The notes beneath the pieces are model-generated. The model ran no database searches, had not been told where the DNA came from, and saw only the letters and a list, made by a program, of their open reading frames with translations. From the IMG/VR virus record IMGVR_UViG_2877274432_000004: 8,353 nucleotides of DNA; one strand, written 5' to 3'. The DNA comes from a virus. Its lineage: Duplodnaviria > Heunggongvirae > Uroviricota > Caudoviricetes. Position 1 is the first letter of the stretch, and each line of letters opens with the position of its first letter. Shown here in pieces: positions 1-8,353 of this stretch. Both the position numbers and the translations under genes were made by a program.

Positions 1-1266
1 GTGACCAAAAAAACTAAGTCCTTATCACCAGCAGCGATAAAAAGCCTCCAGCGAAAAGCCAGCAACGAAAAAAAGGACCTTTTCATCACTGACGGCGAAG
101 GGCTGGAACTGGTGATTAAGCACAAAAGCGCCTCTTGCTTGTGGCGTTACCGCTACTACAAGCCACACACAAAAAAACGGGCCATGTTAAGCATTGGCGC
201 ATATCCAGAAATAAGCATTGCGGGCGCGCGAAAGATAAAAGACGAATACAGGGCGCTTCTTTCTGGTGGCATTGACCCAAAAGAGCACAGAGAGAAACAG
301 CGCCTTAGTGAAGTGATGAAGAGAGAGAACACCTTCAGGCATGTAGCTACGCTTTGGTTTGAACTTAAAAAAGGGCAAGGACTCGCAGAAGGCACACTAC
401 GCGATACATGGCGCTCGCTGGAGCGTAATGTATTCCCGTCAGTCGGCAACAGACCAGTAGCAGACCTGATCGCAAGCAACTTCATCGAAGCATTAAAACC
501 ATTAGCCGCCCAGGGGAAATTAGATACCGTCAGAAGAACGGCGCAGCGAATCAATGAGGTCATGTATTACGCCGTTAATACCGGAATGATTACCGCGAAT
601 GCGGCATCACAGATAAACAAGGCATTTAACGCGCCGAGCGCTAAGAACATGCCAGCAATACGCCCTGAAGAACTCCCCGATTTTATGCAGAAGCTGGCAA
701 CGGCACGAGTGGAACGACAAACGCGACTGGTTATTGAGTGGCAGTTACTGACAATTTGCCGACCAGGTGAAGCAGCTGGCGCGCGCTGGTGTGAGATTGA
801 TTTTGAGGCGAAGGAATGGCGCATACCAGAGCACAGACTTAAACAACGCAGGGAACACGTAATACCACTCTCGAAGCAGGCGTTAGCCATTCTGGATGTC
901 ATGAAGCCAATAAGCGGTCATCGTGAGTTTATATTTCCACACAACAGCGACCCGCAGCGCCCTATGTGCACACAAACAGCAAACGCAGCAATAAAACGCA
1001 TGGGTTTTGGTCGGCGGCTGGTTGCTCATGGCTTGCGCTCAATAGCAAGTACCGCACTTAACGAGCAAGGTTTTGACTCTGACGTAATCGAGGCGGCATT
1101 GTCACACATAGACAAAAACGAGGTTCGCCGCGCGTACAACCGCTCAACCTATCTCGAGCAGCGACGCCCGTTAATGGCGTGGTGGGGGAATTTTGTAGAG
1201 GCAGCCGCAAGCGGGAGCGTAAGCGCCACAGGTGGCTATCGTGGGTTAAAAATGGTTAACGGTTAA
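1..1266 (+). CDS. int: Tyrosine recombinase / site-specific integrase, P4-type; possibly 5'-partial because the ORF starts with GTG at window position 1
   Basis: 421-codon ORF. C-terminal catalytic signatures: H-G-L-R in VAHGLRSIAS (nt ~1021-1050) and the nucleophile Tyr in RRAYNRSTY (nt ~1126-1152). N-terminal region (FITDGEGLELVIK ... WRYRYY) resembles the P4-integrase arm-binding domain. Recognised by eye, not searched. Confidence 0.9.
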   Translation: MTKKTKSLSPAAIKSLQRKASNEKKDLFITDGEGLELVIKHKSASCLWRYRYYKPHTKKRAMLSIGAYPEISIAGARKIKDEYRALLSGGIDPKEHREKQRLSEVMKRENTFRHVATLWFELKKGQGLAEGTLRDTWRSLERNVFPSVGNRPVADLIASNFIEALKPLAAQGKLDTVRRTAQRINEVMYYAVNTGMITANAASQINKAFNAPSAKNMPAIRPEELPDFMQKLATARVERQTRLVIEWQLLTICRPGEAAGARWCEIDFEAKEWRIPEHRLKQRREHVIPLSKQALAILDVMKPISGHREFIFPHNSDPQRPMCTQTANAAIKRMGFGRRLVAHGLRSIASTALNEQGFDSDVIEAALSHIDKNEVRRAYNRSTYLEQRRPLMAWWGNFVEAAASGSVSATGGYRGLKMVNG

Positions 1267-1270
1267 GGGC

Positions 1271-2167
1271 ATGACAAACAAAAAGATAAACCTTCCTGAA
1301 AGGGATTATTACCCGTTAGACAAGGCAGCCAGAAGGCTTGGGTGTGACGTTGATGATTTGATTCACTTCATCGCTACAGGGAAGATGTGTTTTTGGTACC
1401 GTCATCACATAGACGAGGTTTTGACATTACATAATTATAAAAACGCATTTAATAGTGTATCAGCATCAGATTATTATTATGAAAATGATGAAGGCGTATT
1501 CATCAGAGCAACCGACATATTAAAATTACTTGAATTCTCATCTTTTGGTGAAAAAATAATAACCGATGAAGAACAGCTAACGGAAAAGATATTTTTTAAT
1601 TGCTGTGGCGGTTATTCTGAAACAGATATTTTTATATACAACTATCATGGATATAAACAAAGAAAAATCAGAACACAGTTACCACATAAAATCAGGGTTG
1701 TGGCTTCAGGACTTTTACAGGTATTTAATACAAGCATTGATATAGAGAATCTATCAAATGACGTCACAGATTGTTATGTGCGACGCATCGTTATAGCAGA
1801 TAAAGGAAAAGAACCAAAGATAACAATAAATTTATATGGCAAAACAATAAATATTAGTGACATTTTCATCTCAAAAGAAGAGATAAAAATAGTAATGAAC
1901 GGCGGCAGACAACCAGGAGATATGGTAAAGGATTTTTCAGATAAACACGCCTTGTCGCATTCGCAGAGTAAGAAAACAACCAATCTTCAGGCCAGAGTTA
2001 TCAAAAGACTAATCACCGCCATAGCCGGAGAAGAAGAGGCAGCAAACCCAAGAAGAGCGCTTGAGAACGGTCACAGCAAGTTAAGCCGCGCACTAACCAA
2101 AGCAGGGGTTGAAATTGGCGCAACCCCTTCATCTGTTGGTAAGTGGCTTGCAGACGTTGACGACTGA
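1271..2167 (+). CDS. Hypothetical protein, 298 aa, AT-rich cargo gene directly downstream of int; possible N-terminal HTH; function unknown
   Basis: Long ORF starting 4 nt after the int stop (weak SD AAGGG). Central part about 22-28% G+C in hand-counted 60-nt samples (1441-1500, 1801-1860) versus about 48% in int (1021-1080). Followed by a strong intrinsic terminator. No family recognised. Confidence 0.7.
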   Translation: MTNKKINLPERDYYPLDKAARRLGCDVDDLIHFIATGKMCFWYRHHIDEVLTLHNYKNAFNSVSASDYYYENDEGVFIRATDILKLLEFSSFGEKIITDEEQLTEKIFFNCCGGYSETDIFIYNYHGYKQRKIRTQLPHKIRVVASGLLQVFNTSIDIENLSNDVTDCYVRRIVIADKGKEPKITINLYGKTINISDIFISKEEIKIVMNGGRQPGDMVKDFSDKHALSHSQSKKTTNLQARVIKRLITAIAGEEEAANPRRALENGHSKLSRALTKAGVEIGATPSSVGKWLADVDD

Positions 2168-2188
2168 CAGACTTCTGAACACATGACC

Positions 2189-2212
2189 GCCCGTAATATT
2201 ACGGGCTTTTTT
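2189..2212 (+). terminator. Rho-independent terminator closing the int-ORF2 transcription unit
   Basis: Hairpin GCCCGTAA-TAT-TTACGGGC (7-8 bp stem) at 2189-2206 followed by TTTTTT at 2207-2212, 22 nt after the ORF2 stop. Confidence 0.7.
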
Positions 2213-2304
2213 CGTAATATTGCGCAATACCGACATTAACCATGTTTGCATATCCTTAAGCAAGTTTAGGCAAGTTATCGCCTGAAACAAAAGGAAAGCA
2301 AAGC

Positions 2305-2508
2305 ATGAACATCACAGAAAAGAAAATCCTTACAAAACGAGAAGTCGCAAATCTTCTTCGCCTTAGTACAACAAGCATTGACACAATGGTTAAGGCTGGT
2401 GAGTTTATTCCTGGCTTTAAGCGTGGATTGCGTCGCGTTGGCTGGTTTGAGGATGAGGTGAAATCATGGCTTGAGAAGAAAGTAGAGGAGCGTTATCAGC
2501 AGGAATAA
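2305..2508 (+). CDS. alpA: AlpA-family (prophage CP4-57-type) HTH transcriptional regulator / excision activator
   Basis: 67-aa ORF with SD AAAGGAAAG upstream. Sequence pattern (REVANLLRLS ... VGWFEDEVKSWL) is typical of AlpA-type small DNA-binding proteins. Position after int matches CP4-57-like and PICI-like islands. Confidence 0.8.
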   Translation: MNITEKKILTKREVANLLRLSTTSIDTMVKAGEFIPGFKRGLRRVGWFEDEVKSWLEKKVEERYQQE

Positions 2509-2851
2509 TAAATTTCCATGTGTGACATATAAAAGCCACCAGCGCAGAAAATAAAACGCCTCACGTTATGCAAAACGGGTTAACCATCGTGATGCCTTGC
2601 CGCATTCAATTAACGGCAGGTAAAAAAATACCCGCAATGCAATAACACTACGGGCCATTAACGTAATATAAGGAGTTAACCGATGTGTATTGTATACAGT
2701 CGTGTGCATATTGTCACAGGCAACAGGCATCCGCGCCAAATACCCGCCAGAGAAAATCAGTTGATCGCCAGTATCAAAAATGGCTATGATTCCCGCACAC
2801 CTTATAAAACGGGTGTCGGGATTAGGACCCCGCTGACAATCGAGGCGATAC

Positions 2852-2874
2852 AGACGCCGAACGCGTCTTTTTTT
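2852..2874 (+). terminator. Intrinsic terminator-like hairpin plus U-run upstream of the first structured leader
   Basis: AGACGC-CGAAC-GCGTCT hairpin (2852-2868) followed by a 7-T run (2868-2874). It lies inside an open frame that starts at ATG 2683. Confidence 0.5.
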
Positions 2875-2933
2875 GTATCGGCGCACACGCACACCTTATC
2901 AATGGTGGGCTGTATGGGGCTGACTTCGGTCAG

Positions 2934-2955
2934 GCTGGTTCCCTTGATTGCCAGT
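2934..2955 (+). promoter_or_regulatory. Leader hairpin 1 (stem GCTGG/CCAGT, 12-nt loop) whose loop is complementary to the SD region of the downstream small ORF; candidate antisense/anti-SD RNA element
   Basis: Loop 9-mer CCTTGATTG (2942-2950) is the exact reverse complement of CAATCAAGG (3020-3028), which overlaps the SD AAGGAGG of the ORF starting at 3040. The stem and a downstream AACCCTGT block are conserved in the paralogous unit. Confidence 0.4.
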
Positions 2956-3039
2956 AGTCCTAACCCTGTACAGTCCACCGCCAGCGAGTTTAGGACCTCC
3001 GGCGGTGGTTACATTCCATCAATCAAGGAGGCTGCCATC

Positions 3040-3228
3040 ATGGCTACTACCCCTGCCCTCGTACATTCTCAGACAGCCTTTATCTGGCGTTTTATCACCT
3101 TTGGCACGTCAGAACGTCAAATCATCCACGTAACCGCCTGGACGGAACGCGAAGCGCGTAACCGTTGCCCGTCCGGTTTTGTCGCTGTATTCGCTGCCCG
3201 TATCCGTCAGGGGGTGAGTCATGCTTAA
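3040..3228 (+). CDS. Small protein (62 aa), paralog 1; Icd/Kil-like (phage cell-division-inhibitor-like) by recollection
   Basis: ATG at 3040 with strong SD AAGGAGG 7 nt upstream. The C-terminal 45 aa are clearly paralogous to the ORF ending at 3685 (FIWRF ... VTAxTEREAR ... VFAARIRQGVSHA versus FVWRF ... VTAATEHEAR ... VFVARIRQGVRHA). The ORF track's longer version starting at 2683 is judged to be leader, not protein. Confidence 0.55.
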   Translation: MATTPALVHSQTAFIWRFITFGTSERQIIHVTAWTEREARNRCPSGFVAVFAARIRQGVSHA

Positions 3229-3412
3229 AAACATGTTGCTCGCCTCTTCTTTCGGGCTGTATGATGCCGGAGTCGTCCACATGGCGACCGGGTTTGACAG
3301 CCTGAATACTACAGCGGACAGCCGCTTACATTCCGATATGCGGTTTTTTTGTGTCCGTAAGCCTACCCATACCCGCATTATGGCGGGGCGTAACGGGGGA
3401 GCCTTTGCGCTC

Positions 3413-3433
3413 GCTGGTTCCTGTAGTGCCAGT
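3413..3433 (+). promoter_or_regulatory. Leader hairpin 2 (same stem GCTGG/CCAGT, different loop) complementary to the SD region of the second small ORF
   Basis: Loop CCTGTAGTG (3420-3428) is the exact reverse complement of CACTACAGG (3496-3504), overlapping SD ACAGGAG of the ORF starting at 3515. Pairing extends to 13 bp with one G-U (3416-3428 versus 3496-3508). Confidence 0.4.
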
Positions 3434-3514
3434 CTGTCAACCCTGTTACGTCTCGCCACCATGTTTGACAGCGTAGTAGCGAGACTCCTTAATTTCACTA
3501 CAGGAGCCTTTCAC

Positions 3515-3685
3515 ATGGCTGTATCCGCACGCCCTTACTTTGTCTGGCGCTTTATGCAGTGCCACCACAGCAACATCGATGTATTCACCGTTACCGCTGC
3601 CACTGAGCACGAAGCACGCGCCCAGCTGCCGCACGCACATCTTGTTTTTGTCGCCCGTATCCGTCAGGGGGTACGTCATGCGTGA
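3515..3685 (+). CDS. Small protein (56 aa), paralog 2 of the Icd/Kil-like ORF
   Basis: ATG at 3515 with SD ACAGGAG. C-terminal region paralogous to 3040-3228. Stop overlaps the next start (ATGCGTGA). The ORF track's longer version starting at 3221 is judged to be leader. Confidence 0.55.
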   Translation: MAVSARPYFVWRFMQCHHSNIDVFTVTAATEHEARAQLPHAHLVFVARIRQGVRHA

Positions 3686-3992
3686 TGTGTGTAACACCAG
3701 AATACTTGAACAACTGGTTACAACCATAAAAGCAGCTGACGCACGGGAAGCGAGAGCGATGTTTGATGATGCTGACTTCTACGCCCGCAAATTGCTTGAT
3801 GGGCTGGCTATCACAGGGCGCTTACTTTCTGGCATGAGTGACAGCATTGATCCTGACATGGACGAACTACGCAGCCTTGGCGATTCCATCGCTGTTACGG
3901 CTGAGCTGATATCTGCATTCAGTGAGGTTGTGGAGGTGTACAACTGGCGTTGCCGTAACGGAGATATCAGGGCTGATTATCGCCATTCGTGA
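3678..3992 (+). CDS. Hypothetical acidic protein (104 aa), translationally coupled to the preceding small ORF
   Basis: ATG 3678 overlaps the stop of the upstream ORF (ATGCGTGA). Continuous ORF to 3992. No family recognised. Confidence 0.5.
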   Translation: MRDVCNTRILEQLVTTIKAADAREARAMFDDADFYARKLLDGLAITGRLLSGMSDSIDPDMDELRSLGDSIAVTAELISAFSEVVEVYNWRCRNGDIRADYRHS

Positions 3993-4066
3993 TAAGGCAA
4001 CGACAGGCACAGCTAACCGCATTTATGCAGCAACAGCGTAACTGACCAGAACAAAAGGATAAAAAA

Positions 4067-4366
4067 ATGAACATGAAAAAAACTGGCTTAACTGCCAGCG
4101 GCAAACCTCGCCCTGAATTTAAGCGCGGTGATATTTACCGCGACCAGTACGGTGGCACGGTAATGATTAAGGGCGTGGCGGGGCGGTGCGTCAACTACCG
4201 CCGTAAAGGCTACGAATATGATTGCGTGATGCCTGTTTATCAGTTTTCCCGTGATTTTTCTCTGGTGCAGGCGGTACCGCGTAACGTGCCCACCAGCAAC
4301 GTAAAGGCACTGGCAAAAATACAGAAGATGAAAAAGATGATTAACGCATTCAGGGGCAAGAAATGA
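4067..4366 (+). CDS. Hypothetical basic protein (99 aa), coupled to the replication gene
   Basis: SD AAAGGA upstream of ATG 4067. The stop overlaps the start of the downstream replicase (ATGA at 4363-4366). No family recognised. Confidence 0.6.
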   Translation: MNMKKTGLTASGKPRPEFKRGDIYRDQYGGTVMIKGVAGRCVNYRRKGYEYDCVMPVYQFSRDFSLVQAVPRNVPTSNVKALAKIQKMKKMINAFRGKK

Positions 4367-5763
4367 AAAGCGCACCGAACTTAAAAAAACAGCCTTACGA
4401 CAAAATGACCGAGGTCATTATTTTTGCGGGTGGTGATGCCTGGGCACACGCGAAGCAGTGGCAGGAGCAGGAGGGGCGACTTGCTGGCGATAATGTGCCA
4501 CCTGTATGGCTTGGGGAGCAGCAACTTGCAGAACTGACAGACATGAGAATCATCGACGAGGGCCGCTATTGCGTCCGGCTGTACAAAGCAGGCCATATCA
4601 GACCATCAAATATTAATGCCATTGCGCACAAGCTGGCAGCGGCAGGTGTACAGGATGCGAATTATTACCCCGATGGGATGCACAGCCAGAAGCGGGAGAA
4701 CTGGCGCGAATATCTGGAACGGGAGCGCGGTAATAAGCCAGTGGAAGAAAAAAGCCACCAGCGAAACACCACGCTACCGATGAGCGTTGGATCTGCCGGA
4801 TATGACACGCAACTGGATTACGTGGTTAAGGGGATTATTCCGGCGGTATCGCTGTGCAGCATATACGGGGCGAGCGGTTCCTATAAATCGTTCCTTGCGG
4901 GTTCGTGGGCGTGTCACGTTTCCACGGGCCGCCAGTGGGGAGGCCGCAGGGTTGCGCATGGTGCGGTTCTCTATGTGGTTGGTGAAGGCGGTATCGGCGT
5001 TCCGCGTCGTGTAAAAGCCTGGGAGGTTGTGCACGGTGAGCAGGTGAAAAATCTGTATCTGGTAAACCGTCCCATCTTTCCTGCCGCCTCGCTTGATGTT
5101 GATGAAATGGTTATCGCTGCCCGCCAGGTGGAACGGGAAACGGGTAAACCGGTTCGAATGATTATTCTGGATACGCTGGCGCGTTGCTTTGGCGGCAATG
5201 ATGAAAATGATTCCCGTGATATGGGGGCGTTTATCCGTGGGTGTGACGAACTGAAACGGCGCACAGGGGCAACGGTGCTGGTGGTTCATCATTCCGGCAA
5301 GGATGAAACAAAGGGGGCGCGTGGTTCCAGTGCATTCCGTGCATCACTGGACGCCGAATACCGGATACGCAGGGAGGACGCAGGAAGCGAATCGCTGGTT
5401 ATCTCATGTACCAAAATGAAGGACGCGGAGGAACTCAAAGAAGCTGCCTACGATTTGCGGGTAGTTGAGCTTTTTAACGACGCTGACGGGGAGTTAATCA
5501 CGTCTCTGGTGGTGGTGGATGAGCCGCGCCATCCCGTTGAACCGGAGCGCATCGAGGAGGCAGGGAACAAGACGGAAAACCATACCGCGCTATGGGGGTG
5601 CATCCGTTCGCGCACACAGAACGGCGACAGGTGCACGATCCCGCTGTTACGTGATGACATGAAAAAACTGGGGTACGAAATGAAAAACTTCCGGCGCTGG
5701 CTGTACAAGCTGGAAAAAGACAGGGTTATCCGTATCGATGGGGATGATGTAACGCCGCTATAA
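4363..5763 (+). CDS. Replication initiator ATPase / helicase, RecA-fold (RepA / AAA_25-like), with N-terminal domain of unknown function
   Basis: 466-aa ORF. Walker A GASGSYKS (nt ~4868-4891), Walker-B-like MIILDTLARCF (nt ~5155-5187) and VLVVHHSGK typical of RepA/DnaB-like RecA-fold ATPases. An iteron-rich putative ori lies immediately downstream. Confidence 0.8.
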   Translation: MKSAPNLKKQPYDKMTEVIIFAGGDAWAHAKQWQEQEGRLAGDNVPPVWLGEQQLAELTDMRIIDEGRYCVRLYKAGHIRPSNINAIAHKLAAAGVQDANYYPDGMHSQKRENWREYLERERGNKPVEEKSHQRNTTLPMSVGSAGYDTQLDYVVKGIIPAVSLCSIYGASGSYKSFLAGSWACHVSTGRQWGGRRVAHGAVLYVVGEGGIGVPRRVKAWEVVHGEQVKNLYLVNRPIFPAASLDVDEMVIAARQVERETGKPVRMIILDTLARCFGGNDENDSRDMGAFIRGCDELKRRTGATVLVVHHSGKDETKGARGSSAFRASLDAEYRIRREDAGSESLVISCTKMKDAEELKEAAYDLRVVELFNDADGELITSLVVVDEPRHPVEPERIEEAGNKTENHTALWGCIRSRTQNGDRCTIPLLRDDMKKLGYEMKNFRRWLYKLEKDRVIRIDGDDVTPL

Positions 5764-5975
5764 AAGTGAGGTGCAAAAGTGAGGGGTATAGAAGGAGGGC
5801 CAAAATAAGGCCGCCCTCCCTCACTTTCTCACCTGTATATAGGCAAAAAAGTGAGTAGTAAAAAATTACATATAAAACACACACATAAAAATACTAAAAA
5901 TCTCAAGCGAGGAGAGGCAAGGAGAGGCGAGCGATTCTAAAAAGTGAGTAAAAAAAGTGGGTAGTAGTGAGGAAA
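5762..5975. repeat. Putative origin of replication: AAAGTGAG(G/T) iterons in both orientations flanking an AT-rich tract, plus GGAGAGGC direct repeats
   Basis: AAAAGTGAGG at 5762 and 5775. Inverted copy inside CCCTCCCTCACTTTCTCACC (5815-5834). AAAAAGTGAGTAG at 5845. AAAGTGAGTA / AAAGTGGGTAG / TAGTGAGG at 5941-5971. AT-rich tract around 5860-5905. GGAGAGGC at 5911, 5921 and 6012. Inverted repeat GGAGGGC ... GCCCTCC at 5794-5819. Confidence 0.5.
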
Positions 5976-6025
5976 CGACAAAAAAACACAAAGCAGAGCA
6001 GCACAAAAACAGGAGAGGCAGCAGC

Positions 6026-6436
6026 ATGACAGCACAGATAGCAGCTTACGGGCGGCTGGTAGACGACCCGCAGGTAAAACAGACCAGCAAGGGAACACCG
6101 ATGACGCTGGCGCGTATGACGGTATCGCTGCCATGCAGTCAGGCGCAGGACGGGCAGGCGACGTTATGGCTGTCGGTCCTGGCATTTGGCAAACAAGCCG
6201 ACCAACTGGCAGGACATGAGAAAGGCAACGTAATCAGTGTATCCGGTGTGATGCAGGTAAGCCAGTGGACCGGACAGAACGGGGAAACGCGGCAGGGTTA
6301 TCAGGTCATTGCAGACAGCGTAATCAGTGCGAAAACGGCGCGACCAGGTGGCAACAGACGCAGGACCACAGGCACACAGGGTAATCAGCCACCAGCGGGA
6401 GGCGATGACCCTTATGGTGATGATATTCCGTTCTGA
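6026..6436 (+). CDS. ssb: Single-stranded DNA-binding protein (SSB) with acidic C-terminal DDIPF tail
   Basis: 136-aa ORF from ATG 6026 (SD AGGAGAGG, 7-nt spacer). OB-fold-like pattern (GRLVDDPQVK ... W ... AFGK) and a C-terminal ...DDPYGDDIPF matching the conserved SSB protein-interaction tail. The ORF-track start at 5957 is probably too early. Confidence 0.8.
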   Translation: MTAQIAAYGRLVDDPQVKQTSKGTPMTLARMTVSLPCSQAQDGQATLWLSVLAFGKQADQLAGHEKGNVISVSGVMQVSQWTGQNGETRQGYQVIADSVISAKTARPGGNRRRTTGTQGNQPPAGGDDPYGDDIPF

Positions 6437-6446
6437 GGGGAGAACG

Positions 6447-6719
6447 ATGGTACATGACCGCATAGTGGAAGAACTGGAGTCGAAAGGCTTTTACCGGAGA
6501 GCGGCGGCGCGATGGGCCGAAGTTATGATGCTGGTGGAGACAGACAGGGAACGCGAACGGGTGGCAATGCGCAGGGCAGAGTGTTACGGGAAGGCACAGA
6601 GGCCACCGGAGCCGCCAGAGGAGAACTACGCAGACCTGAGGAAAGCAGTAAACCGCACTTACGCAGAAATGGGGATAGGAGGGAGATGTAAAAAAATCTG
6701 GCGTAGCTACCAGAAGTAA
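6447..6719 (+). CDS. PerC-like small transcriptional regulator (tentative)
   Basis: 90-aa ORF from ATG 6447 (SD GAGGGGA), starting 11 nt after the ssb stop. The motif FYRRAAARWAEVM resembles PerC-family proteins as I recall them. The ORF-track start at 6327 overlaps ssb and is unlikely. Confidence 0.55.
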   Translation: MVHDRIVEELESKGFYRRAAARWAEVMMLVETDRERERVAMRRAECYGKAQRPPEPPEENYADLRKAVNRTYAEMGIGGRCKKIWRSYQK

Positions 6720-6832
6720 GCACAGGACAGGAACAGTCAGCCGGATTTTCTGATTGTGTGCGTGTATATCGTTTTATCGCGACGTTAAATTAAACTGGTA
6801 TGACCAGATACACCAACATAAGAGGCTACCGG

Positions 6833-7240
6833 ATGAACGATCAAAACCATCACGCACCAAAAGACATTGAGCGGATTAAATTCATAAATGACATAGACGG
6901 CGGAGACAAACCCGGCGAGGCATGGTGTGATTCGCTTGCTGATATCGTGTCTCATTCAGTGGCTGAGCTTACCCGTAATGGCATGGAGCAGTCTGAAGCC
7001 TTCAGAATCGCCAAGCAGGTTGTTGCTGCAATCGCCTTCTATGCTGGTGGGCGAAGTCTTTACCTTCCAACAGGCAGATCACTTTTTGTAGCATTGCGCG
7101 AATACGAGATTTACCACAGGTGGGATAACGGCGAAAAATTACAGGAATTACGCAAAGAGTACGCAATATCAGAAACCCATATTTACGACATCATCCGGCG
7201 ACTAAGAAAGAAGCACGCCAATAAAATCACGCAAGACTAA
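6833..7240 (+). CDS. Mor-family (Mu middle-operon-regulator-like) transcriptional activator
   Basis: 135-aa ORF from ATG 6833 (SD AGAGG, 7-nt spacer); alternative start at 6800. C-terminal HTH-like region LREYEIYHRWDNGEKLQELRKEYAISETHIYDIIRRL is typical of Mor/C-type activators. Confidence 0.7.
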   Translation: MNDQNHHAPKDIERIKFINDIDGGDKPGEAWCDSLADIVSHSVAELTRNGMEQSEAFRIAKQVVAAIAFYAGGRSLYLPTGRSLFVALREYEIYHRWDNGEKLQELRKEYAISETHIYDIIRRLRKKHANKITQD

Positions 7241-7374
7241 CCACAGACACCAGCAGCAACCGTTATATTTGCGCCGCTATCGCAAAAATCCCCTTTCAGG
7301 GCATCCACTGATGCTACAAAACACCAAAACGCATCAGAGAGCGAATCAGGCGCTTTAATGGTGATTTGTTTTTT

Positions 7375-7440
7375 GTGAAAAAAGGTGAAAGAAGCTGATT
7401 TTTGTGAAATTAAGCGAAATCACGTGAAATCAGGTGAAAT
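7375..7440 (+). repeat. Array of six (G)TGAAA(T) direct repeats with roughly 10-bp phasing; candidate protein-binding array (regulatory or packaging)
   Basis: GTGAAA 7375, GGTGAAAG 7384, TGTGAAAT 7403, GCGAAAT 7414, CGTGAAAT 7423, GGTGAAAT 7433. Non-coding: stops in all frames. Confidence 0.5.
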
Positions 7441-7516
7441 AATGATACCCGTTCATCTGGTGCTACCAGACGAAACAGACTTTACCCACGCATAACGCAT
7501 GATTACTATTTTGCCT

Positions 7517-7616
7517 GGCTGTATGGTGTACTCTTAATCGGTAAAGCGGCACCCGCTTGTATAGCTTCCAGAAAGCGGGATGTTTATGTGGGTTCGACCC
7601 CCACCACCAGCAACCA
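7517..7616 (+). other. tRNA-like element, copy 1 (degenerate 5' half; intact T-arm plus acceptor 3' strand)
   Basis: T-stem GTGGG (7588-7592) / CCCAC (7600-7604) with T-loop TTCGACC, followed by CACCAGCA. Shares a ~33-nt block with copy 2. Not a canonical tRNA. Confidence 0.3.
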
Positions 7617-7635
7617 ACAACCTCATTGCTTTTTT

Positions 7636-7717
7636 GCTGGTGTACGCTCAACGGGTAGAGCCGGTGCCAGCCTGTACAGGCTGATCATGTATGCGGGTTC
7701 GACCCCCGCCACCAGCA
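7636..7717 (+). other. tRNA-like element, copy 2: acceptor, D-arm and T-arm are tRNA-like but the anticodon arm is replaced by a perfect 16-nt palindrome
   Basis: Acceptor GCTGGTG (7636-7642) pairs with CACCAGC (7710-7716). D-arm GCTC-AACGGGTA-GAGC. T-arm GCGGG-TTCGACC-CCCGC (7693-7709). Central CAGCCTGTACAGGCTG is a perfect palindrome rather than a 7-nt anticodon loop. No encoded CCA. Confidence 0.35.
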
Positions 7718-7921
7718 CACCAAAACGAGCGCCACATCAACCAGCATTAAAACCGCCCTAAAACCATTTTCAAACTTTCGACAGCGCATACATGAACGCC
7801 ATCGGTTTGCATGTGCACATTGATACCCGTTATCGACGATCAAACAGCAAGGGTATCTTTTTCAAAAAAGGCATACAAAAAGGCATACAAAACGAAAATC
7901 AAAAACACATAATTAATATAA

Positions 7922-8353
7922 ATCAATGGAATAACCAATCAATTCATAGACATCCCGGGTCTGAAATTGCCGCTGTTTGACGGTGGACGGTTGAATGCCA
8001 ATCTCGAAGGCACGCGCGCCGCCAGCAACATGATGATTGAACGTTACAACCAGTCAGTACTGAACGCGGTGCGTGACGTTGCCGTCAACGGCACGCGTCT
8101 GCAAACGCTCAACGACGAGCGAGAAATGCAGGCTGAACACGTGGAAGCAACGCGCTTCACCCAGCGCGCTGCCGAGGCCGCCTATCAGCGCGGCTTAACC
8201 AGCCGCTTACAGGCCACTGAAGCCCGGTTGCCAGTACTTGCCGAAGAGATGTCATTACTGATGCTGGACAGCCGCCGGGTGATCCAAAGCATTCAGTTGA
8301 TGAAATCGCTGGGCGGCGGGTATCAGGCGGCTCCCGTCGTCGAGAAAAAATAA
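7922..8353 (+). pseudogene. 3' fragment of a TolC-family (OMF/NodT-type) outer-membrane efflux protein gene; 5' part absent from this locus, apparently displaced by the island
   Basis: Frame open from 7922 (after TAA at 7919-7921); the ORF track's first start is TTG at 7967. Translation (IDIPGLKLPLFDGGRLNANLEG ... LMKSLGGGYQAAPVVEKK) matches the C-terminal region of outer-membrane efflux factors. Upstream is AT-rich non-coding DNA, so the gene has no N-terminal two-thirds here. Confidence 0.75.

What the first reader, a model, noticed from the sequence alone, without database searches (positions are those of the whole stretch)
1..7950. Minimal satellite architecture: replication and regulation modules without any virion or capsid-remodelling genes
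Seen in sequence: the ~8 kb element carries int, AlpA, RecA-fold replicase plus ori, SSB, PerC-like and Mor-like regulators, but no recognisable capsid, terminase, Sid/Psu/Delta-like or Ppi/Rpp-like genes. Established knowledge: P4 and Gram-negative PICIs normally encode functions that redirect helper packaging or capsid size. Inference: this may be a reduced or unclassified satellite lineage (a CP4-57-like int/alpA/replicase module) that relies on a different way to exploit a helper, possibly through the Mor-like activator acting on helper late promoters. The small hypothetical ORFs at 3678-3992 and 4067-4366 would then be the candidates for helper-interaction functions.
Basis: partly seen in the sequence, partly recalled or inferred. 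Interest (0 to 1): 0.5.

Follow-up and report, generated by a model that had tools for sequence, protein, structure and literature searches.

The report
Minimal PICI-type island tied to Mu-like phages
This is a small mobile island of E. coli from the phage-satellite (PICI) lineage that has lost all packaging genes and instead carries a small module copied from Mu-like phages, which suggests, without proving, that it parasitises those phages in a stripped-down way.

Summary
The window holds all but about 205 bp of an 8.45-kb integrative island inserted inside mdtP. This is a secondary site; the same island sits at tRNA-Ile ileX in other genomes.

There are no capsid, terminase or Sid/Psu/Delta genes, and no further module lies outside the window.

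- two tandem P1/P4-type RNA immunity units (isrK, C4 RNA, Icd-like ORF), each C4 loop pairing with its own icd ribosome-binding site;
- two tRNA-like RNAs;
- a GTGAAA repeat cluster;
- the att and arm sites.

The immunity-replication block is 85-87% identical to that of capsid-forming PICIs. So this is a PICI-lineage island whose late zone was replaced, not a CP4-57-like element.

The replacement module points to Mu-like prophages:
- Mor is a C-type late activator (49% identity over the aligned core, 41% full length, to an E. coli Mu-like phage C) that lacks both clamp-binding motifs.
- Both tRNA-like RNAs match allelic elements in the gpF-gpG spacer of Mu-like prophages, with compensatory changes.
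- 12 of 14 complete genomes with the module also carry a Mu-like prophage (background 4.8%).

Best reading: a minimalist PICI-type satellite of Mu-like phages. This is untested experimentally.

The parts
1..1266 (+). Tyrosine integrase of the P4 type, with an arm-binding domain. It targets the 3' end of tRNA-Ile ileX, and here a secondary site in mdtP.
   Evidence: Pfam and NCBIfam. att comparison of L001 and L002.
1271..2167 (+). orf298, a gene contiguous with int. GC is 33%. It has an HTH-like N-terminus, a conserved C-terminus and a variable middle. It occupies the same position as the PICMI iolg/icg excision gene. Function unknown.
   Evidence: No family hit. Eleven homologue clusters, with a counterpart at the same place in L005. 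AF2 model poor, pLDDT 60.7. PICMI iolg: PMC10803314.
2189..2206 (+). Terminator-like hairpin followed by a T-run, after orf298.
2305..2508 (+). AlpA-family regulator/excisionase.
   Evidence: Pfam Phage_AlpA and HTH_17; phrog_66.
2761..2790 (+). Sigma-70-like promoter (TTGATC-18-TATGAT) in front of the immunity/early operon. Analogue of P4 PLE.
   Evidence: The position relative to isrK is read from the sequence.
2797..2873 (+). isrK-like RNA element 1 (P4 seqA / P1 a1b1 analogue) with its own terminator at 2852-2868.
   Evidence: Rfam RF01394, 59.2 bits against a gathering score of 50. Terminator.
2898..2985 (+). C4 antisense (immunity) RNA 1. Its loop CCTTGATTG (2942-2950) pairs with 3020-3028.
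   Evidence: Rfam RF01695, 77.8 bits against 45. Complementarity. Loop and target are identical in Stx2 phage F039.
3040..3228 (+). Icd-like ORF 1. Its ribosome-binding site is covered by the C4-1 target.
   Evidence: NF033153, 57.7 bits. phrog_1743 and phrog_29966..
3259..3350 (+). c4-a1b1/isrK-like element 2. It scores below the Rfam gathering scores.
   Evidence: Rfam RF03163 at 29.3 bits and RF01394 at 32.3 bits.
3376..3463 (+). C4 antisense RNA 2. Its loop TCCTGTAGTG (3419-3428) pairs with 3496-3505. Its specificity differs from unit 1.
   Evidence: Rfam RF01695, 72.3 bits..
3515..3685 (+). Icd-like ORF 2. Its ribosome-binding site is covered by the C4-2 target.
   Evidence: phrog_1743 and phrog_1426..
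3678..3992 (+). ORF104, a conserved 104-aa three-helix protein. It always lies between the C4/icd unit and the replicase, in the position of P1 ant or P4 epsilon. Function unknown.
   Evidence: 45 homologue clusters across Enterobacteriaceae. Context in L048. AF2 pLDDT 83, with no fold match. dN/dS 0.28.
4067..4366 (+). DUF4222 protein. Its end overlaps the repA start, and it is conserved with RepA in cfPICIs.
   Evidence: Pfam, 78 bits. Same gene pair in L003 and L004. dN/dS 0.09.
4363..5763 (+). RepA-type (AAA_25, RecA-fold) replicative helicase/initiator.
   Evidence: Pfam, 147 bits. phrog_2850 full length, 845 bits. dN/dS 0.11.
5762..6020 (.). Replication origin: AAAAGTGAG(G/T) iterons in both orientations, an AT-rich core, and AGGAGAGGC three times.
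   Evidence: The placement 3' of rep matches the PICI rule in PMC6092414.
6026..6436 (+). Single-strand DNA-binding protein.
   Evidence: Pfam SSB and phrog_44. dN/dS 0.08.
6447..6719 (+). PerC-family regulator.
   Evidence: Pfam, 127 bits. PerC is known in E. coli PICIs (PMC6092414, PMC11773190).
6833..7240 (+). Mor/C-family activator. It is closest to the C late activator of E. coli Mu-like phages and lacks both beta-clamp-binding motifs.
   Evidence: Pfam Mor, 85.7 bits. tblastn gives 49% identity over the aligned core to Mu_JNE082796 C and 32% to Mu C. Full-length alignment gives 41% and 33%. Clamp-binding motifs: PMC12867686. dN/dS 0.21.
7281..7315 (+). Match to the CGCAAA-N23-KAYGCT architecture found at P_lys and P_I of Mu-like phages. 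Weak: the -10-like part is not conserved in sister islands.
   Evidence: Non-conservation.
7375..7451 (+). Cluster of five GTGAAA repeats plus GCGAAA, followed by AATGATACC. It resembles the left-end-specific block (nt 31-85) of Mu-like phages. Candidate packaging-signal mimic.
   Evidence: Conserved in L001, L002, L005 and L038.
7517..7616 (+). tRNA-like RNA 1 (cloverleaf). It is the allelic 'type 1' of the element found in the gpF-gpG spacer of Mu-like prophages.
   Evidence: PGAP 'tRNA-OTHER' in L001 and L002. Homologues in L010 and L011. Covariation.
7636..7722 (+). tRNA-like RNA 2 (PGAP calls it tRNA-Tyr; the anticodon loop has 6 nt). It is the allelic 'type 2' of the Mu-like prophage element.
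   Evidence: Rfam tRNA, 37.5 bits against 29. ARAGORN finds none. About 84% identical to L006:3997-4076. Covariation.
7867..7888 (.). Arm-type integrase-binding repeats, AAAGGCATAC twice. The same pair lies upstream of int, outside the window.
7952..7959 (.). attR core (ATCCCGGG), duplicated at attL; the island/mdtP junction.
   Evidence: The BLAST match of the ileX copies ends at 7952.
7960..8353 (+). 3' part of the host gene mdtP. This is flank, not island.
   Evidence: Pfam OEP. PGAP annotation of L001.

Best explanation
The element is an 8.45-kb integrative island of the Gram-negative PICI lineage. Its usual late (capsid/packaging) zone has been replaced by a roughly 1.2-kb Mu-type module.

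Shown:
- A P4-type integrase with arm sites inserted the island by site-specific recombination at ileX, and here at a secondary site in mdtP.
- AlpA follows the integrase.
- Two tandem, hetero-specific P1/P4-type immunity units follow. Each C4 RNA loop is complementary to the ribosome-binding site of its own icd-like ORF.
- Next comes a RepA-helicase replicon with DUF4222, an iteron origin and SSB.
- PerC follows the replicon.
- The island ends with a C-type Mor-family activator, a GTGAAA repeat cluster and two cloverleaf tRNA-like RNAs.

Inferred life cycle:
1. In the quiescent state the C4 RNAs block translation and read-through of the early operon.
2. When a helper is active, AlpA-dependent expression drives excision and overrides the block, and RepA replicates the circle into concatemers.
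3. The C-like activator acts on the late promoters of a resident Mu-like prophage. It lacks the clamp-binding motifs that tie MuC activity to replication.
4. The helper's headful terminase recognises the left-end-like GTGAAA block and fills a full-size head with about 4-5 island copies.
5. The two tRNA-like RNAs match two alleles of a helper element. They probably act on, or sense, the helper late transcript, to which they are antisense. This last step is the least certain.
For: Boundaries and mobility:
- att and arm sites are clean at two different sites.
- One genome carries three copies.
- The same mdtP insertion, with identical gene order, is on hundreds of contigs.

PICI lineage:
- Window 2753-6674 is 85-87% identical to the same block of a capsid-forming PICI (L003) and of a PICI with a protease/capsid fusion gene (L004).
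- The layout fits the Integration / immunity-RNA / Replication zones of Tommasini et al..
- The origin sits 3' of rep, as in PICIs.

Immunity:
- Rfam C4 scores 77.8 and 72.3 bits; isrK scores 59.2 bits.
- Loop-to-RBS complementarity is 9 and 10 nt.

Genes under constraint: dN/dS is 0.08-0.39 for repA, ssb, DUF4222, mor, orf104 and perC.

Link to Mu-like phages:
- The Mor protein is 49% identical over the aligned core (tblastn), and 41% full length, to the C activator of Mu-like phage Mu_JNE082796. It is 32-33% identical to Mu C.
- tRNA-like RNA 2 is about 84% identical, and RNA 1 about 81-83% identical, to two allelic elements at the same gpF-gpG spacer of Mu-like prophages.
- The consensus fold is a cloverleaf, and 11 of 25 pairs show compensatory changes.
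- The PerC-Mor-tRNA-like module also occurs on a second island backbone with another integrase and a toprim/DUF927 replicase.
- The Mor region is in 14 of 5426 complete genomes. Twelve of these also have a Mu-like gpT locus, against 260 of 5412 others (Fisher p about 2e-14).
- The GTGAAA block is left-end specific and is the best-conserved part of the phage left end. The best local match of that end anywhere in the window falls on the island cluster.

Precedents:
- A Mu-like phage helps PmCI172 (PMC6092414).
- Minimalist satellites are packaged as concatemers (PMC10803314).
Against: - No experimental evidence of induction, excision, replication or transfer exists for this island.
- Two of the 14 genomes with the module, including the closest complete relative of the window, have no Mu-like prophage.
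- The co-occurrence is not corrected for phylogeny. Both elements are frequent in STEC.
- The left-end alignment is only suggestive: score 29 against shuffles of 22.9 +/- 2.4, maximum 32.
- The late-promoter-like match at 7281-7315 is not conserved in sister islands.
- The Mor protein lacks both clamp-binding motifs. In MuC, mutating either one abolishes activation. So it could be inactive or inhibitory.
- C4 unit 1 has the same specificity as Stx2a phages, which points to cross-talk with a different phage type.
- No island-type relative was found in IMG/VR viral contigs.
- How a transposable phage's packaging machinery would act on a replicating circle is unknown.
Confidence: 0.5

Rival explanations
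1. Stranded PICI remnant. A PICI or cfPICI lost its late zone by deletion or recombination. It persists as an integrase-mobile but non-transducible genomic island. Mor and the tRNA-like sequences are captured debris from a Mu-like phage with no role.
For: - There are no packaging genes.
- SatelliteFinder's authors set aside more than 6000 three-component 'Type C' loci as possibly defective.
- No relatives were found in viral contig collections.
- Some sister islands carry pseudogenes: SSB is partial and PerC is frameshifted in L005.
Against: - All ORFs are intact, and dN/dS is 0.08-0.39 across 7-9% divergence.
- Gene order is identical on hundreds of contigs.
- The island is found at two or three insertion sites, with three copies in one genome.
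- The Mor-tRNA-like module recurs on two unrelated backbones.
- The island carries both helper alleles of the tRNA-like RNA, with compensatory changes.
- It co-occurs strongly with Mu-like prophages.
Confidence: 0.2
2. Satellite or hitch-hiker of lambdoid (Stx-type) phages. The helper is sensed through the shared C4/isrK immunity type. Mor regulates only island genes.
For: - C4 unit 1 (2782-3059) is 91% identical to Stx2a phages, with identical loop and target.
- The carrier strains are mostly STEC.
- Characterised E. coli PICIs use lambdoid or P22-like helpers.
Against: - No cos or terS-like element, and no Rpp/Ppi homologue, was detected.
- The only phage-derived parts of the late end are Mu-type.
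- The same C4-type modules are swapped freely among cfPICIs, islands and phages, so an immunity type says little about the helper.
Confidence: 0.15
3. Primarily an anti-Mu defence/interference island. The clamp-motif-less C homologue occupies helper late promoters as a dominant-negative. The tRNA-like RNAs act as antisense to the gpF-gpG region of the late mRNA. Together they block Mu-like phage development whether or not the island is transferred.
For: - Both clamp-binding motifs are lost, and in MuC losing either abolishes activation.
- The tRNA-like genes are antisense to the helper late operon.
- Satellites commonly interfere with their helpers.
Against: - A full autonomous replicon, the integrase/AlpA pair and a left-end-like repeat block are not needed for defence alone.
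- Positive co-occurrence with intact-looking Mu-like prophages is the opposite of what exclusion predicts.
- This reading is compatible with the main one rather than exclusive of it.
Confidence: 0.15

Closest known systems
Gram-negative PICIs and capsid-forming PICIs of E. coli (Fillol-Salom 2018; Tommasini 2023; the cfPICI locus L003 between roxA and phoQ)
   Same: - int pointing inward, followed by AlpA.
- C4/isrK immunity-RNA zone.
- The identical DUF4222-RepA-ori-SSB-PerC block, 85-87% identical in DNA.
- Origin immediately 3' of rep.
- tRNA integration site.
   Different: - No late zone at all: no capsid, protease, portal, connector, HNH, terS or terL.
- In its place are a Mor/C-type activator, a repeat block and two tRNA-like RNAs.
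- By SatelliteFinder criteria it has only 3 of 5 core components.
PICMI (phage-inducible chromosomal minimalist islands of Vibrionaceae, PMC10803314)
   Same: - Small size.
- int, then a gene contiguous with int, then alpA, one or more small ORFs, then a replicase.
- No capsid-remodelling or packaging genes.
- Expected to rely wholly on the helper and to fill full-size heads as a concatemer.
   Different: - Host is Escherichia, not Vibrionaceae.
- Site is ileX or mdtP, not next to fis.
- Replicase is a RepA helicase, not a primase.
- It carries C4 RNA immunity, SSB, PerC, Mor and tRNA-like RNAs, which PICMIs lack.
- The candidate helper is a temperate Mu-like phage, not a virulent phage.
Satellite P4 (helper P2)
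   Same: - P4-type integrase.
- An AlpA/Vis homologue upstream of an RNA-immunity region (CI = C4, seqA = isrK), followed by small ORFs and the replicase in one operon.
- A satellite-encoded homologue of the helper's late activator (P4 Delta versus P2 Ogr; here Mor versus the Mu-like C).
   Different: - No sid, psu, delta, epsilon or alpha homologues.
- The activator belongs to the Mor/C family, not the Ogr/Delta zinc-finger family.
- The replicase is RepA-type.
PmCI172/PmCI86 of Pasteurella multocida (helper: a Mu-like myovirus; PMC6092414)
   Same: A PICI-type island whose helper is, or is here proposed to be, a Mu-like phage.
   Different: - PmCI172 encodes a capsid protein homologue and makes small capsids; this island has none.
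- Whether PmCI172 carries a Mor homologue or a tRNA-like RNA was not examined here.
immI operon of phages P1/P7 (c4-icd-ant)
   Same: - A C4 RNA whose loop pairs with the ribosome-binding site of a downstream icd-like ORF.
- Different units have different specificities, like P1 versus P7.
   Different: - Two or three units lie in tandem.
- The downstream gene is ORF104 and then a replication operon, not a recognisable antirepressor.

Membership tests
PICI (SatelliteFinder core set, de Sousa 2023) | Integrase | tested here: met
   Pfam and NCBIfam.
PICI (SatelliteFinder core set, de Sousa 2023) | Regulation module (AlpA, MerR or Stl) | tested here: met
   Phage_AlpA at 23 bits against a cut-off of 21; phrog_66.
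PICI (SatelliteFinder core set, de Sousa 2023) | Primase-replicase module | tested here: inconclusive
   The replicase is an AAA_25 RepA-type helicase with no primase domain. The same replicase serves cfPICIs. SatelliteFinder's own profiles were not run.
PICI (SatelliteFinder core set, de Sousa 2023) | Capsid morphogenesis gene | tested here: not met
   No hit in Pfam or PHROGs. The boundaries exclude hidden genes.
PICI (SatelliteFinder core set, de Sousa 2023) | Small terminase subunit | tested here: not met
   No hit.
PICI (functional definition) | Helper-induced excision, replication and packaging | not testable with these tools
   This needs induction experiments.
Gram-negative PICI four-zone organisation (Tommasini 2023) | Integration zone (inward-pointing int plus AlpA), immunity-RNA/Bro zone, Replication zone | tested here: met
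   No Bro-N protein was found, only the RNAs.
Gram-negative PICI four-zone organisation (Tommasini 2023) | Late zone with prophage late genes | tested here: not met
   Only Mor and RNA or repeat elements lie after PerC.
Capsid-forming PICI | Capsid, protease, portal, head-tail connectors, terS and terL | tested here: not met
   Absent here but present in sister locus L003.
P4-like satellites | psu, delta, sid, epsilon and alpha genes | tested here: not met
   No Pfam or PHROG match.
P4-like satellites | CI-type immunity RNA with a seqA-like target upstream of the replication operon | tested here: met
   Rfam C4 and isrK. Their equivalence to CI and seqA is stated in PMC10111431.
PICMI | Integration next to fis; Vibrionaceae host | tested here: not met
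   The sites are ileX and mdtP, in E. coli.
PICMI | Core of int, alpA and primase, with no capsid-remodelling genes | tested here: inconclusive
   int and alpA are present and no remodelling genes are found, but the replicase is a helicase, not a primase.
PICMI | Packaged as a concatemer in full-size helper capsids | not testable with these tools
   This needs sequencing of virion DNA.
P1/P7-type c4-icd immunity | C4 RNA, an Icd-like ORF, and a loop complementary to the icd ribosome-binding site | tested here: met
Mor/C transcription activators | Mor domain | tested here: met
   PF08765, 85.7 bits against a cut-off of 24.9.
Mor/C transcription activators | N- and C-terminal beta-clamp-binding motifs (Qx[DE][LM]F and QPDLF; PMC12867686) | tested here: not met
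   The alignment shows QNHHA at the N-terminus, and the protein ends ...ITQD.
tRNA genes | Cloverleaf with a 7-nt anticodon loop, detected by tRNA finders | tested here: inconclusive
   - Rfam tRNA scores 37.5 bits against 29 for RNA 2 only.
- ARAGORN finds none.
- The cloverleaf is supported by covariation.
- The anticodon loop of RNA 2 has 6 nt, and RNA 1 has a long insert.
CP4-57-like cryptic prophage | Integration at ssrA and CP4-57 gene content beyond int and alpA | tested here: not met
   The sites are ileX and mdtP. The backbone matches cfPICI/PICI loci.

The most novel reading that the evidence does not exclude
E. coli harbours a previously undescribed kind of minimalist PICI-type satellite specialised on transposable Mu-like phages. 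It would take over the helper with three mimics and no structural genes:
- a C-type late activator freed from the sliding-clamp requirement, so that late genes of a non-replicating prophage can be switched on;
- a copy of the helper's left-end packaging block;
- a pair of tRNA-like RNAs, one for each helper allele, antisense to the helper's gpF-gpG late transcript.

These tRNA-like RNAs would define a new class of RNA shared between phages and their satellites.
Probability: 0.3. Interest if true: 0.8.

Novelty: new variant of a known kind. Interest (0 to 1): 0.6.

Why it matters
- Satellite finders require capsid or terminase genes, so they discard thousands of int-AlpA-replicase islands as ambiguous. 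This island shows that at least some are coherent, constrained and mobile, and carry a recognisable helper-specific module. The real diversity of satellites in enterobacteria would then be larger than current counts.
- It offers a tractable E. coli system for two questions. One is how a satellite can exploit a transposable phage. The other is whether a Mor/C activator can work without the sliding clamp.
- It exposes a conserved tRNA-like RNA in Mu-like prophages of STEC whose function is unknown.
- The insertion inactivates the efflux gene mdtP. The island also carries a PerC regulator, a family known to affect LEE virulence gene expression.

Tried and rejected
- **ORF104 (3678-3992).** The homologue search gave only 'hypothetical' proteins. 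The AF2 model was good (pLDDT 83), but Foldseek against PDB and BFVD gave nothing below E = 0.1.
- **orf298.** No family was found in four libraries. There are few homologues. The AF2 model was poor (pLDDT 60.7) and the PDB fold search meaningless.
- **RepA.** No hit against PDB sequences.
- **Mor relatives elsewhere.** Searches of IMG/VR and GTDB genomes found none. The family is tiny and restricted to E. coli.
- **First chimeric co-occurrence query.** It included perC, which matches 1345 genomes, so it was uninformative. It was repeated without perC.
- **Late-promoter pattern.** CGCAAA-N23-KAYGCT is real in Mu-like phages, and the window has its one match at 7281-7315 (expected 0.01). But sister islands have GACGCC there, so I give it little weight.
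- **The tRNA-like genes as att sites of this integrase.** Rejected: their 3' ends do not resemble the attP core AGCAGGGGCCACCA.
- **Pasteurella phage Pmp9.** It looked like a possible Mor-carrying PICI but is a partial Mu-like phage.
- **Minor items.** The Rfam beta-tmRNA and isrL hits are far below their gathering scores. My NCBIfam query for icd2 was out of frame, so the PHROG result stands instead.

Full report
**Observation**

All long ORFs of the window lie on the + strand.
- a P4-type tyrosine integrase with an arm-binding domain (1-1266);
- AlpA (2305-2508);
- an AAA_25 RepA-type helicase (4363-5763);
- SSB (6026-6436);
- PerC (6447-6719);
- a Mor-family protein (6833-7240).

Two further ORFs are of unknown function: DUF4222 (4067-4366) and a 104-aa protein (3678-3992). 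A low-GC 298-aa ORF (1271-2167) follows int directly. Nothing matches capsid, portal, protease, terminase or Sid/Psu/Delta, and nothing matches any PADLOC defence model.

The origin is real. Iterons AAAAGTGAG(G/T) in both orientations, an AT-rich core and three AGGAGAGGC repeats lie directly after the repA stop. This is where PICI origins lie.

**Boundaries**

The closest complete-genome relative, STEC17-183 (95% identity), shows the island inside mdtP. The order there is: the mdtP 5' part, about 205 bp, int ... Mor, two tRNA-like genes, then the mdtP 3' part.

In strain 48 the same island lies next to tRNA-Ile ileX. Comparing the four junctions gives a core related to the tRNA 3' end:
- ileX copy: attL ...CAGCAGGGGCCACCA|aatcga; attR gacAGCAGGGCCAgat.
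- mdtP copy: attL ATCCCGGGCCACCA|aatcga; attR gacATCCCGGGtctg.

Paired AAAGGCATAC arm-type repeats flank both sides of attP. The island is therefore about 8.45 kb and ends at window position 7959. It lacks only attL and the int promoter in the window.

The mdtP insertion, with identical gene order, is on hundreds of contigs. One genome carries three copies of the Mor region.

Rfam finds two tandem units on the + strand:
- isrK at 2797-2873 (59 bits) and C4 at 2898-2985 (78 bits);
- a1b1/isrK-like at 3259-3350 (below the gathering scores) and C4 at 3376-3463 (72 bits).

Each unit is followed by an Icd-like ORF, at 3040-3228 and 3515-3685.

The loop of each C4 is complementary to the ribosome-binding site of its own icd:
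- CCTTGATTG pairs with CAATCAAGG, 12 nt before the ATG at 3040.
- TCCTGTAGTG pairs with CACTACAGGA, 10 nt before the ATG at 3515.

The two specificities differ, as they do in P1 versus P7. A sigma-70-like promoter sits at 2761-2790, and isrK has its own terminator.

Tommasini et al. equate isrK and C4 with P4 seqA and CI, and place them in the second zone of Gram-negative PICIs. The unit number varies; strain 48 has three.

Unit 1 has exactly the loop and target of Stx2a phages, while a cfPICI has another pair.

The ORF that PGAP and Pfam call 'Ash' overlies these RNA genes and is probably not a protein.

**What lineage it belongs to**

Window 2753-6674 (C4/Icd, DUF4222, RepA, ori, SSB, PerC) is 85-87% identical in DNA to the same block in two other loci:
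- L003: downstream of PerC come major capsid, protease, portal, head closure, connector, HNH, terS and terL. This is a capsid-forming PICI.
- L004: downstream is a protease/capsid fusion gene.

The island is thus a PICI/cfPICI-lineage backbone whose late zone has been replaced, not a CP4-57-like element.

By the SatelliteFinder definition it has three of five core components. It would fall among the more than 6000 'Type C' loci that the authors set aside.

Still smaller relatives exist. A Klebsiella grimontii island has only int, AlpA, Ash/C4, the ORF104 homologue, Toprim and DUF927.

**Evidence that it is not a wreck**

Against its mdtP relatives, the window is 99.7-100% identical over int-orf298-alpA but only 91-93% identical over repA-mor. 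So it is a recombinant.

dN/dS values are 0.11 (repA), 0.08 (ssb), 0.09 (DUF4222), 0.21 (mor), 0.28 (orf104) and 0.39 (perC).

**The end module and Mu-like phages**

*1. The Mor protein.* It is a C-type late activator.
- It is 49% identical over the aligned core, residues 42-139 (tblastn), and 41% full length, to the C gene of the E. coli Mu-like phage Mu_JNE082796.
- It is 32-33% identical to Mu C.
- Its own family is tiny and found only in E. coli.
[quoted passage not shown] Mutating either one abolishes activation (PMC12867686).
- The Mu-like C has QMSMF and QPPLF. The island protein has QNHHA and stops at ...ITQD, so both motifs are lost.

*2. The two tRNA-like genes.*
- RNA 2 (7636-7722) is about 84% identical to an element annotated 'tRNA-OTHER' in Mu-like prophages of O157:H7 and other STEC.
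- RNA 1 (7517-7616) is about 81-83% identical to a second allele of that element.
- In the phages, both alleles occupy the same spot: the spacer between the head-morphogenesis gene gpF and gpG, on the strand opposite the late genes.
- The island carries both alleles in tandem.
- RNAalifold gives a cloverleaf, and 11 of 25 pairs show compensatory changes. These include three in the acceptor stem between island RNA 2 and the phage allele, and one in the T stem between the two types.
- ARAGORN rejects them all. Only RNA 2 passes the Rfam tRNA threshold. Its anticodon loop has six bases. I therefore call them tRNA-like.
- Twenty-six IMG/VR contigs carry the conserved core. The two I inspected are Mu-like phages.

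*3. The GTGAAA cluster.*
- Positions 7375-7440 hold five GTGAAA and one GCGAAA in about 65 bp. Only three other copies occur on that strand in the rest of the window.
- The Mu-like phage left end has a block of (G/C)TGAAA repeats at nt 31-85. This block is absent from the right end, which has only TTTGATACC-type sites. It is identical in two phages whose flanks differ.
- From memory, Mu's pac site lies at about nt 32-54 of the left end.
- The best local alignment of the 130-nt left end anywhere in the window falls on the island cluster. Its score (29) is only 2.6 sd above shuffles. The resemblance is suggestive, not proven.

*4. Module exchange.* The same PerC-Mor-repeat-tRNA-like end module sits on a second backbone. 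That island has a different integrase and site (next to dinD) and a toprim/DUF927 replicase. So the module is exchanged as a unit.

*5. Co-occurrence.*
- The Mor region occurs in 14 of 5426 complete genomes.
- A chimeric query of the Mor region plus 600 nt of the Mu-like gpT gene gives extra places in 12 of them. These can only be gpT loci.
- By comparison, 260 of the other 5412 genomes have such a locus. Fisher p is about 2e-14. It is still about 1e-2 to 1e-5 under harsher assumptions.
- This is not corrected for phylogeny. Two carriers, including the closest relative of the window, lack a Mu-like prophage.

**Mechanism I consider most likely**

Shown:
- an integrase/AlpA module with clean att and arm sites;
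- RNA immunity with loop-to-RBS pairing;
- an autonomous RepA/iteron replicon with SSB;
- a C-type activator, a repeat block and two cloverleaf RNAs with homologues in Mu-like phages.

Inferred:
- In the resting state the C4 RNAs shut the early operon, as in P1 and P4.
- An active helper raises AlpA-dependent expression, as in other Gram-negative PICIs and in PICMI. The island then excises and replicates.
- The C-like protein acts on the helper's late promoters. Either it switches on morphogenesis and lysis genes of a non-replicating prophage, because it no longer needs the clamp, or it competes with the helper's C.
- The helper's headful machinery starts at the left-end-like block and fills a full-size head with four to five island copies, as PICMIs do.
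- The tRNA-like RNAs are antisense to the helper's gpF-gpG transcript. They may modulate or sense it.

Precedents exist for each idea:
- P4 Delta is a homologue of P2 Ogr (from memory).
- A Mu-like phage helps PmCI172.
- PICMIs lack capsid genes and are packaged as concatemers.

**Rivals**

- A stranded PICI remnant. This is countered by the selective constraint, the copy number, the module exchange and the co-occurrence.
- A satellite of lambdoid Stx phages, suggested by the shared C4 type. This is countered by the lack of any cos/terS-type element and by the free shuffling of C4 types.
- A defence island against Mu-like phages. This is compatible with satellite biology, but it does not explain the replicon or the positive association.

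**Comparison and novelty**

The island works like a cross between three known systems:
- P4: RNA immunity and a homologue of the helper's late activator.
- PICMI: a minimal gene set.
- E. coli PICIs and cfPICIs: the backbone.

It fails the membership tests of the PICI finder (no capsid or terS gene), cfPICI, P4-like satellites and PICMI. I found no paper that links Mor-family genes or tRNA-like RNAs with PICIs. I therefore rate it a new variant of a known kind.

The finding deserves follow-up mainly for three things:
- the Mu-specific module;
- the clamp-motif-less C homologue;
- the tRNA-like RNA conserved between phage and island.

Noticed in passing
window 7952-8353; L001:4722-5795 and 14227-14640: The island splits the efflux gene mdtP. 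The same insertion is present on hundreds of E. coli contigs, whereas the primary site of the island is tRNA-Ile ileX.
   Followed up: yes
window 2797-3685; L002:7682-9141: The isrK-C4-icd unit is tandemly repeated, and the copy number varies: two here, three in strain 48. Each copy has its own loop/RBS specificity.
   Followed up: partly
window 2782-3059; L050:3016-3277: C4 unit 1 is 91% identical to Stx2a-converting phages and has the identical loop and target. There the unit precedes a 215-aa ORF in the early-left region. Immunity cross-talk between island and Stx phage is possible.
   Followed up: partly
window 2683-3228: The ORF annotated 'Ash family protein' (Pfam Phage_ASH; a pseudogene in RefSeq) lies over the isrK and C4 RNA genes. 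The protein family may be a translation of RNA genes.
   Followed up: no
L006:3997-4076; L010:3498-3585; L011:3499-3586: Mu-like prophages of STEC carry a conserved cloverleaf tRNA-like element. It comes in two alleles and lies antisense to the late operon in the gpF-gpG spacer. I found no description of it in the literature searched.
   Followed up: partly
window 1271-2167; L005:1192-2145: The low-GC gene right after int has conserved HTH-like N- and C-terminal parts and a variable middle, and it recurs at the same place in a different island type. Positionally it matches the PICMI int-overlapping/contiguous gene that is needed for excision.
   Followed up: partly
window 1-2508 versus 4363-7240, compared with L001 and L038: Divergence is mosaic: 99.7-100% identity over int-orf298-alpA but 91-93% over repA-ssb-mor. 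This indicates recombination between island variants.
   Followed up: partly
NZ_AP045179.1 (JNEC-KY203): This genome has three copies of the Mor region (two located: mdtP at 4607826-4616359 and a copy at about 694800). It also has one Mu-like gpT locus.
   Followed up: no
L048:7573-13173 (Klebsiella grimontii): This is an even smaller relative of about 6 kb. It has only int, AlpA, Ash/C4, the ORF104 homologue, Toprim and DUF927.
   Followed up: no
L008:12330-12364 and 20257-20291, and about 19 other Mu-like loci: The putative C-dependent late promoters of these Mu-like phages share the architecture CCGCAAA-N23-TAYGCT, upstream of the lysis genes and of the protease gene.
   Followed up: partly
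L052:2406-2500: In O157:H7 strain N8B7-2 the Mu-like prophage is inserted in hyfF. Its left-end GTGAAA block (nt 31-85) is identical to that of Mu_JNE082796, although the flanking sequence differs.
   Followed up: yes
L005:1103-1168: The Rfam 'int-alpA RNA' motif (64 bits) is present between int and the next gene in the second island type. It is not detected in the window.
   Followed up: no
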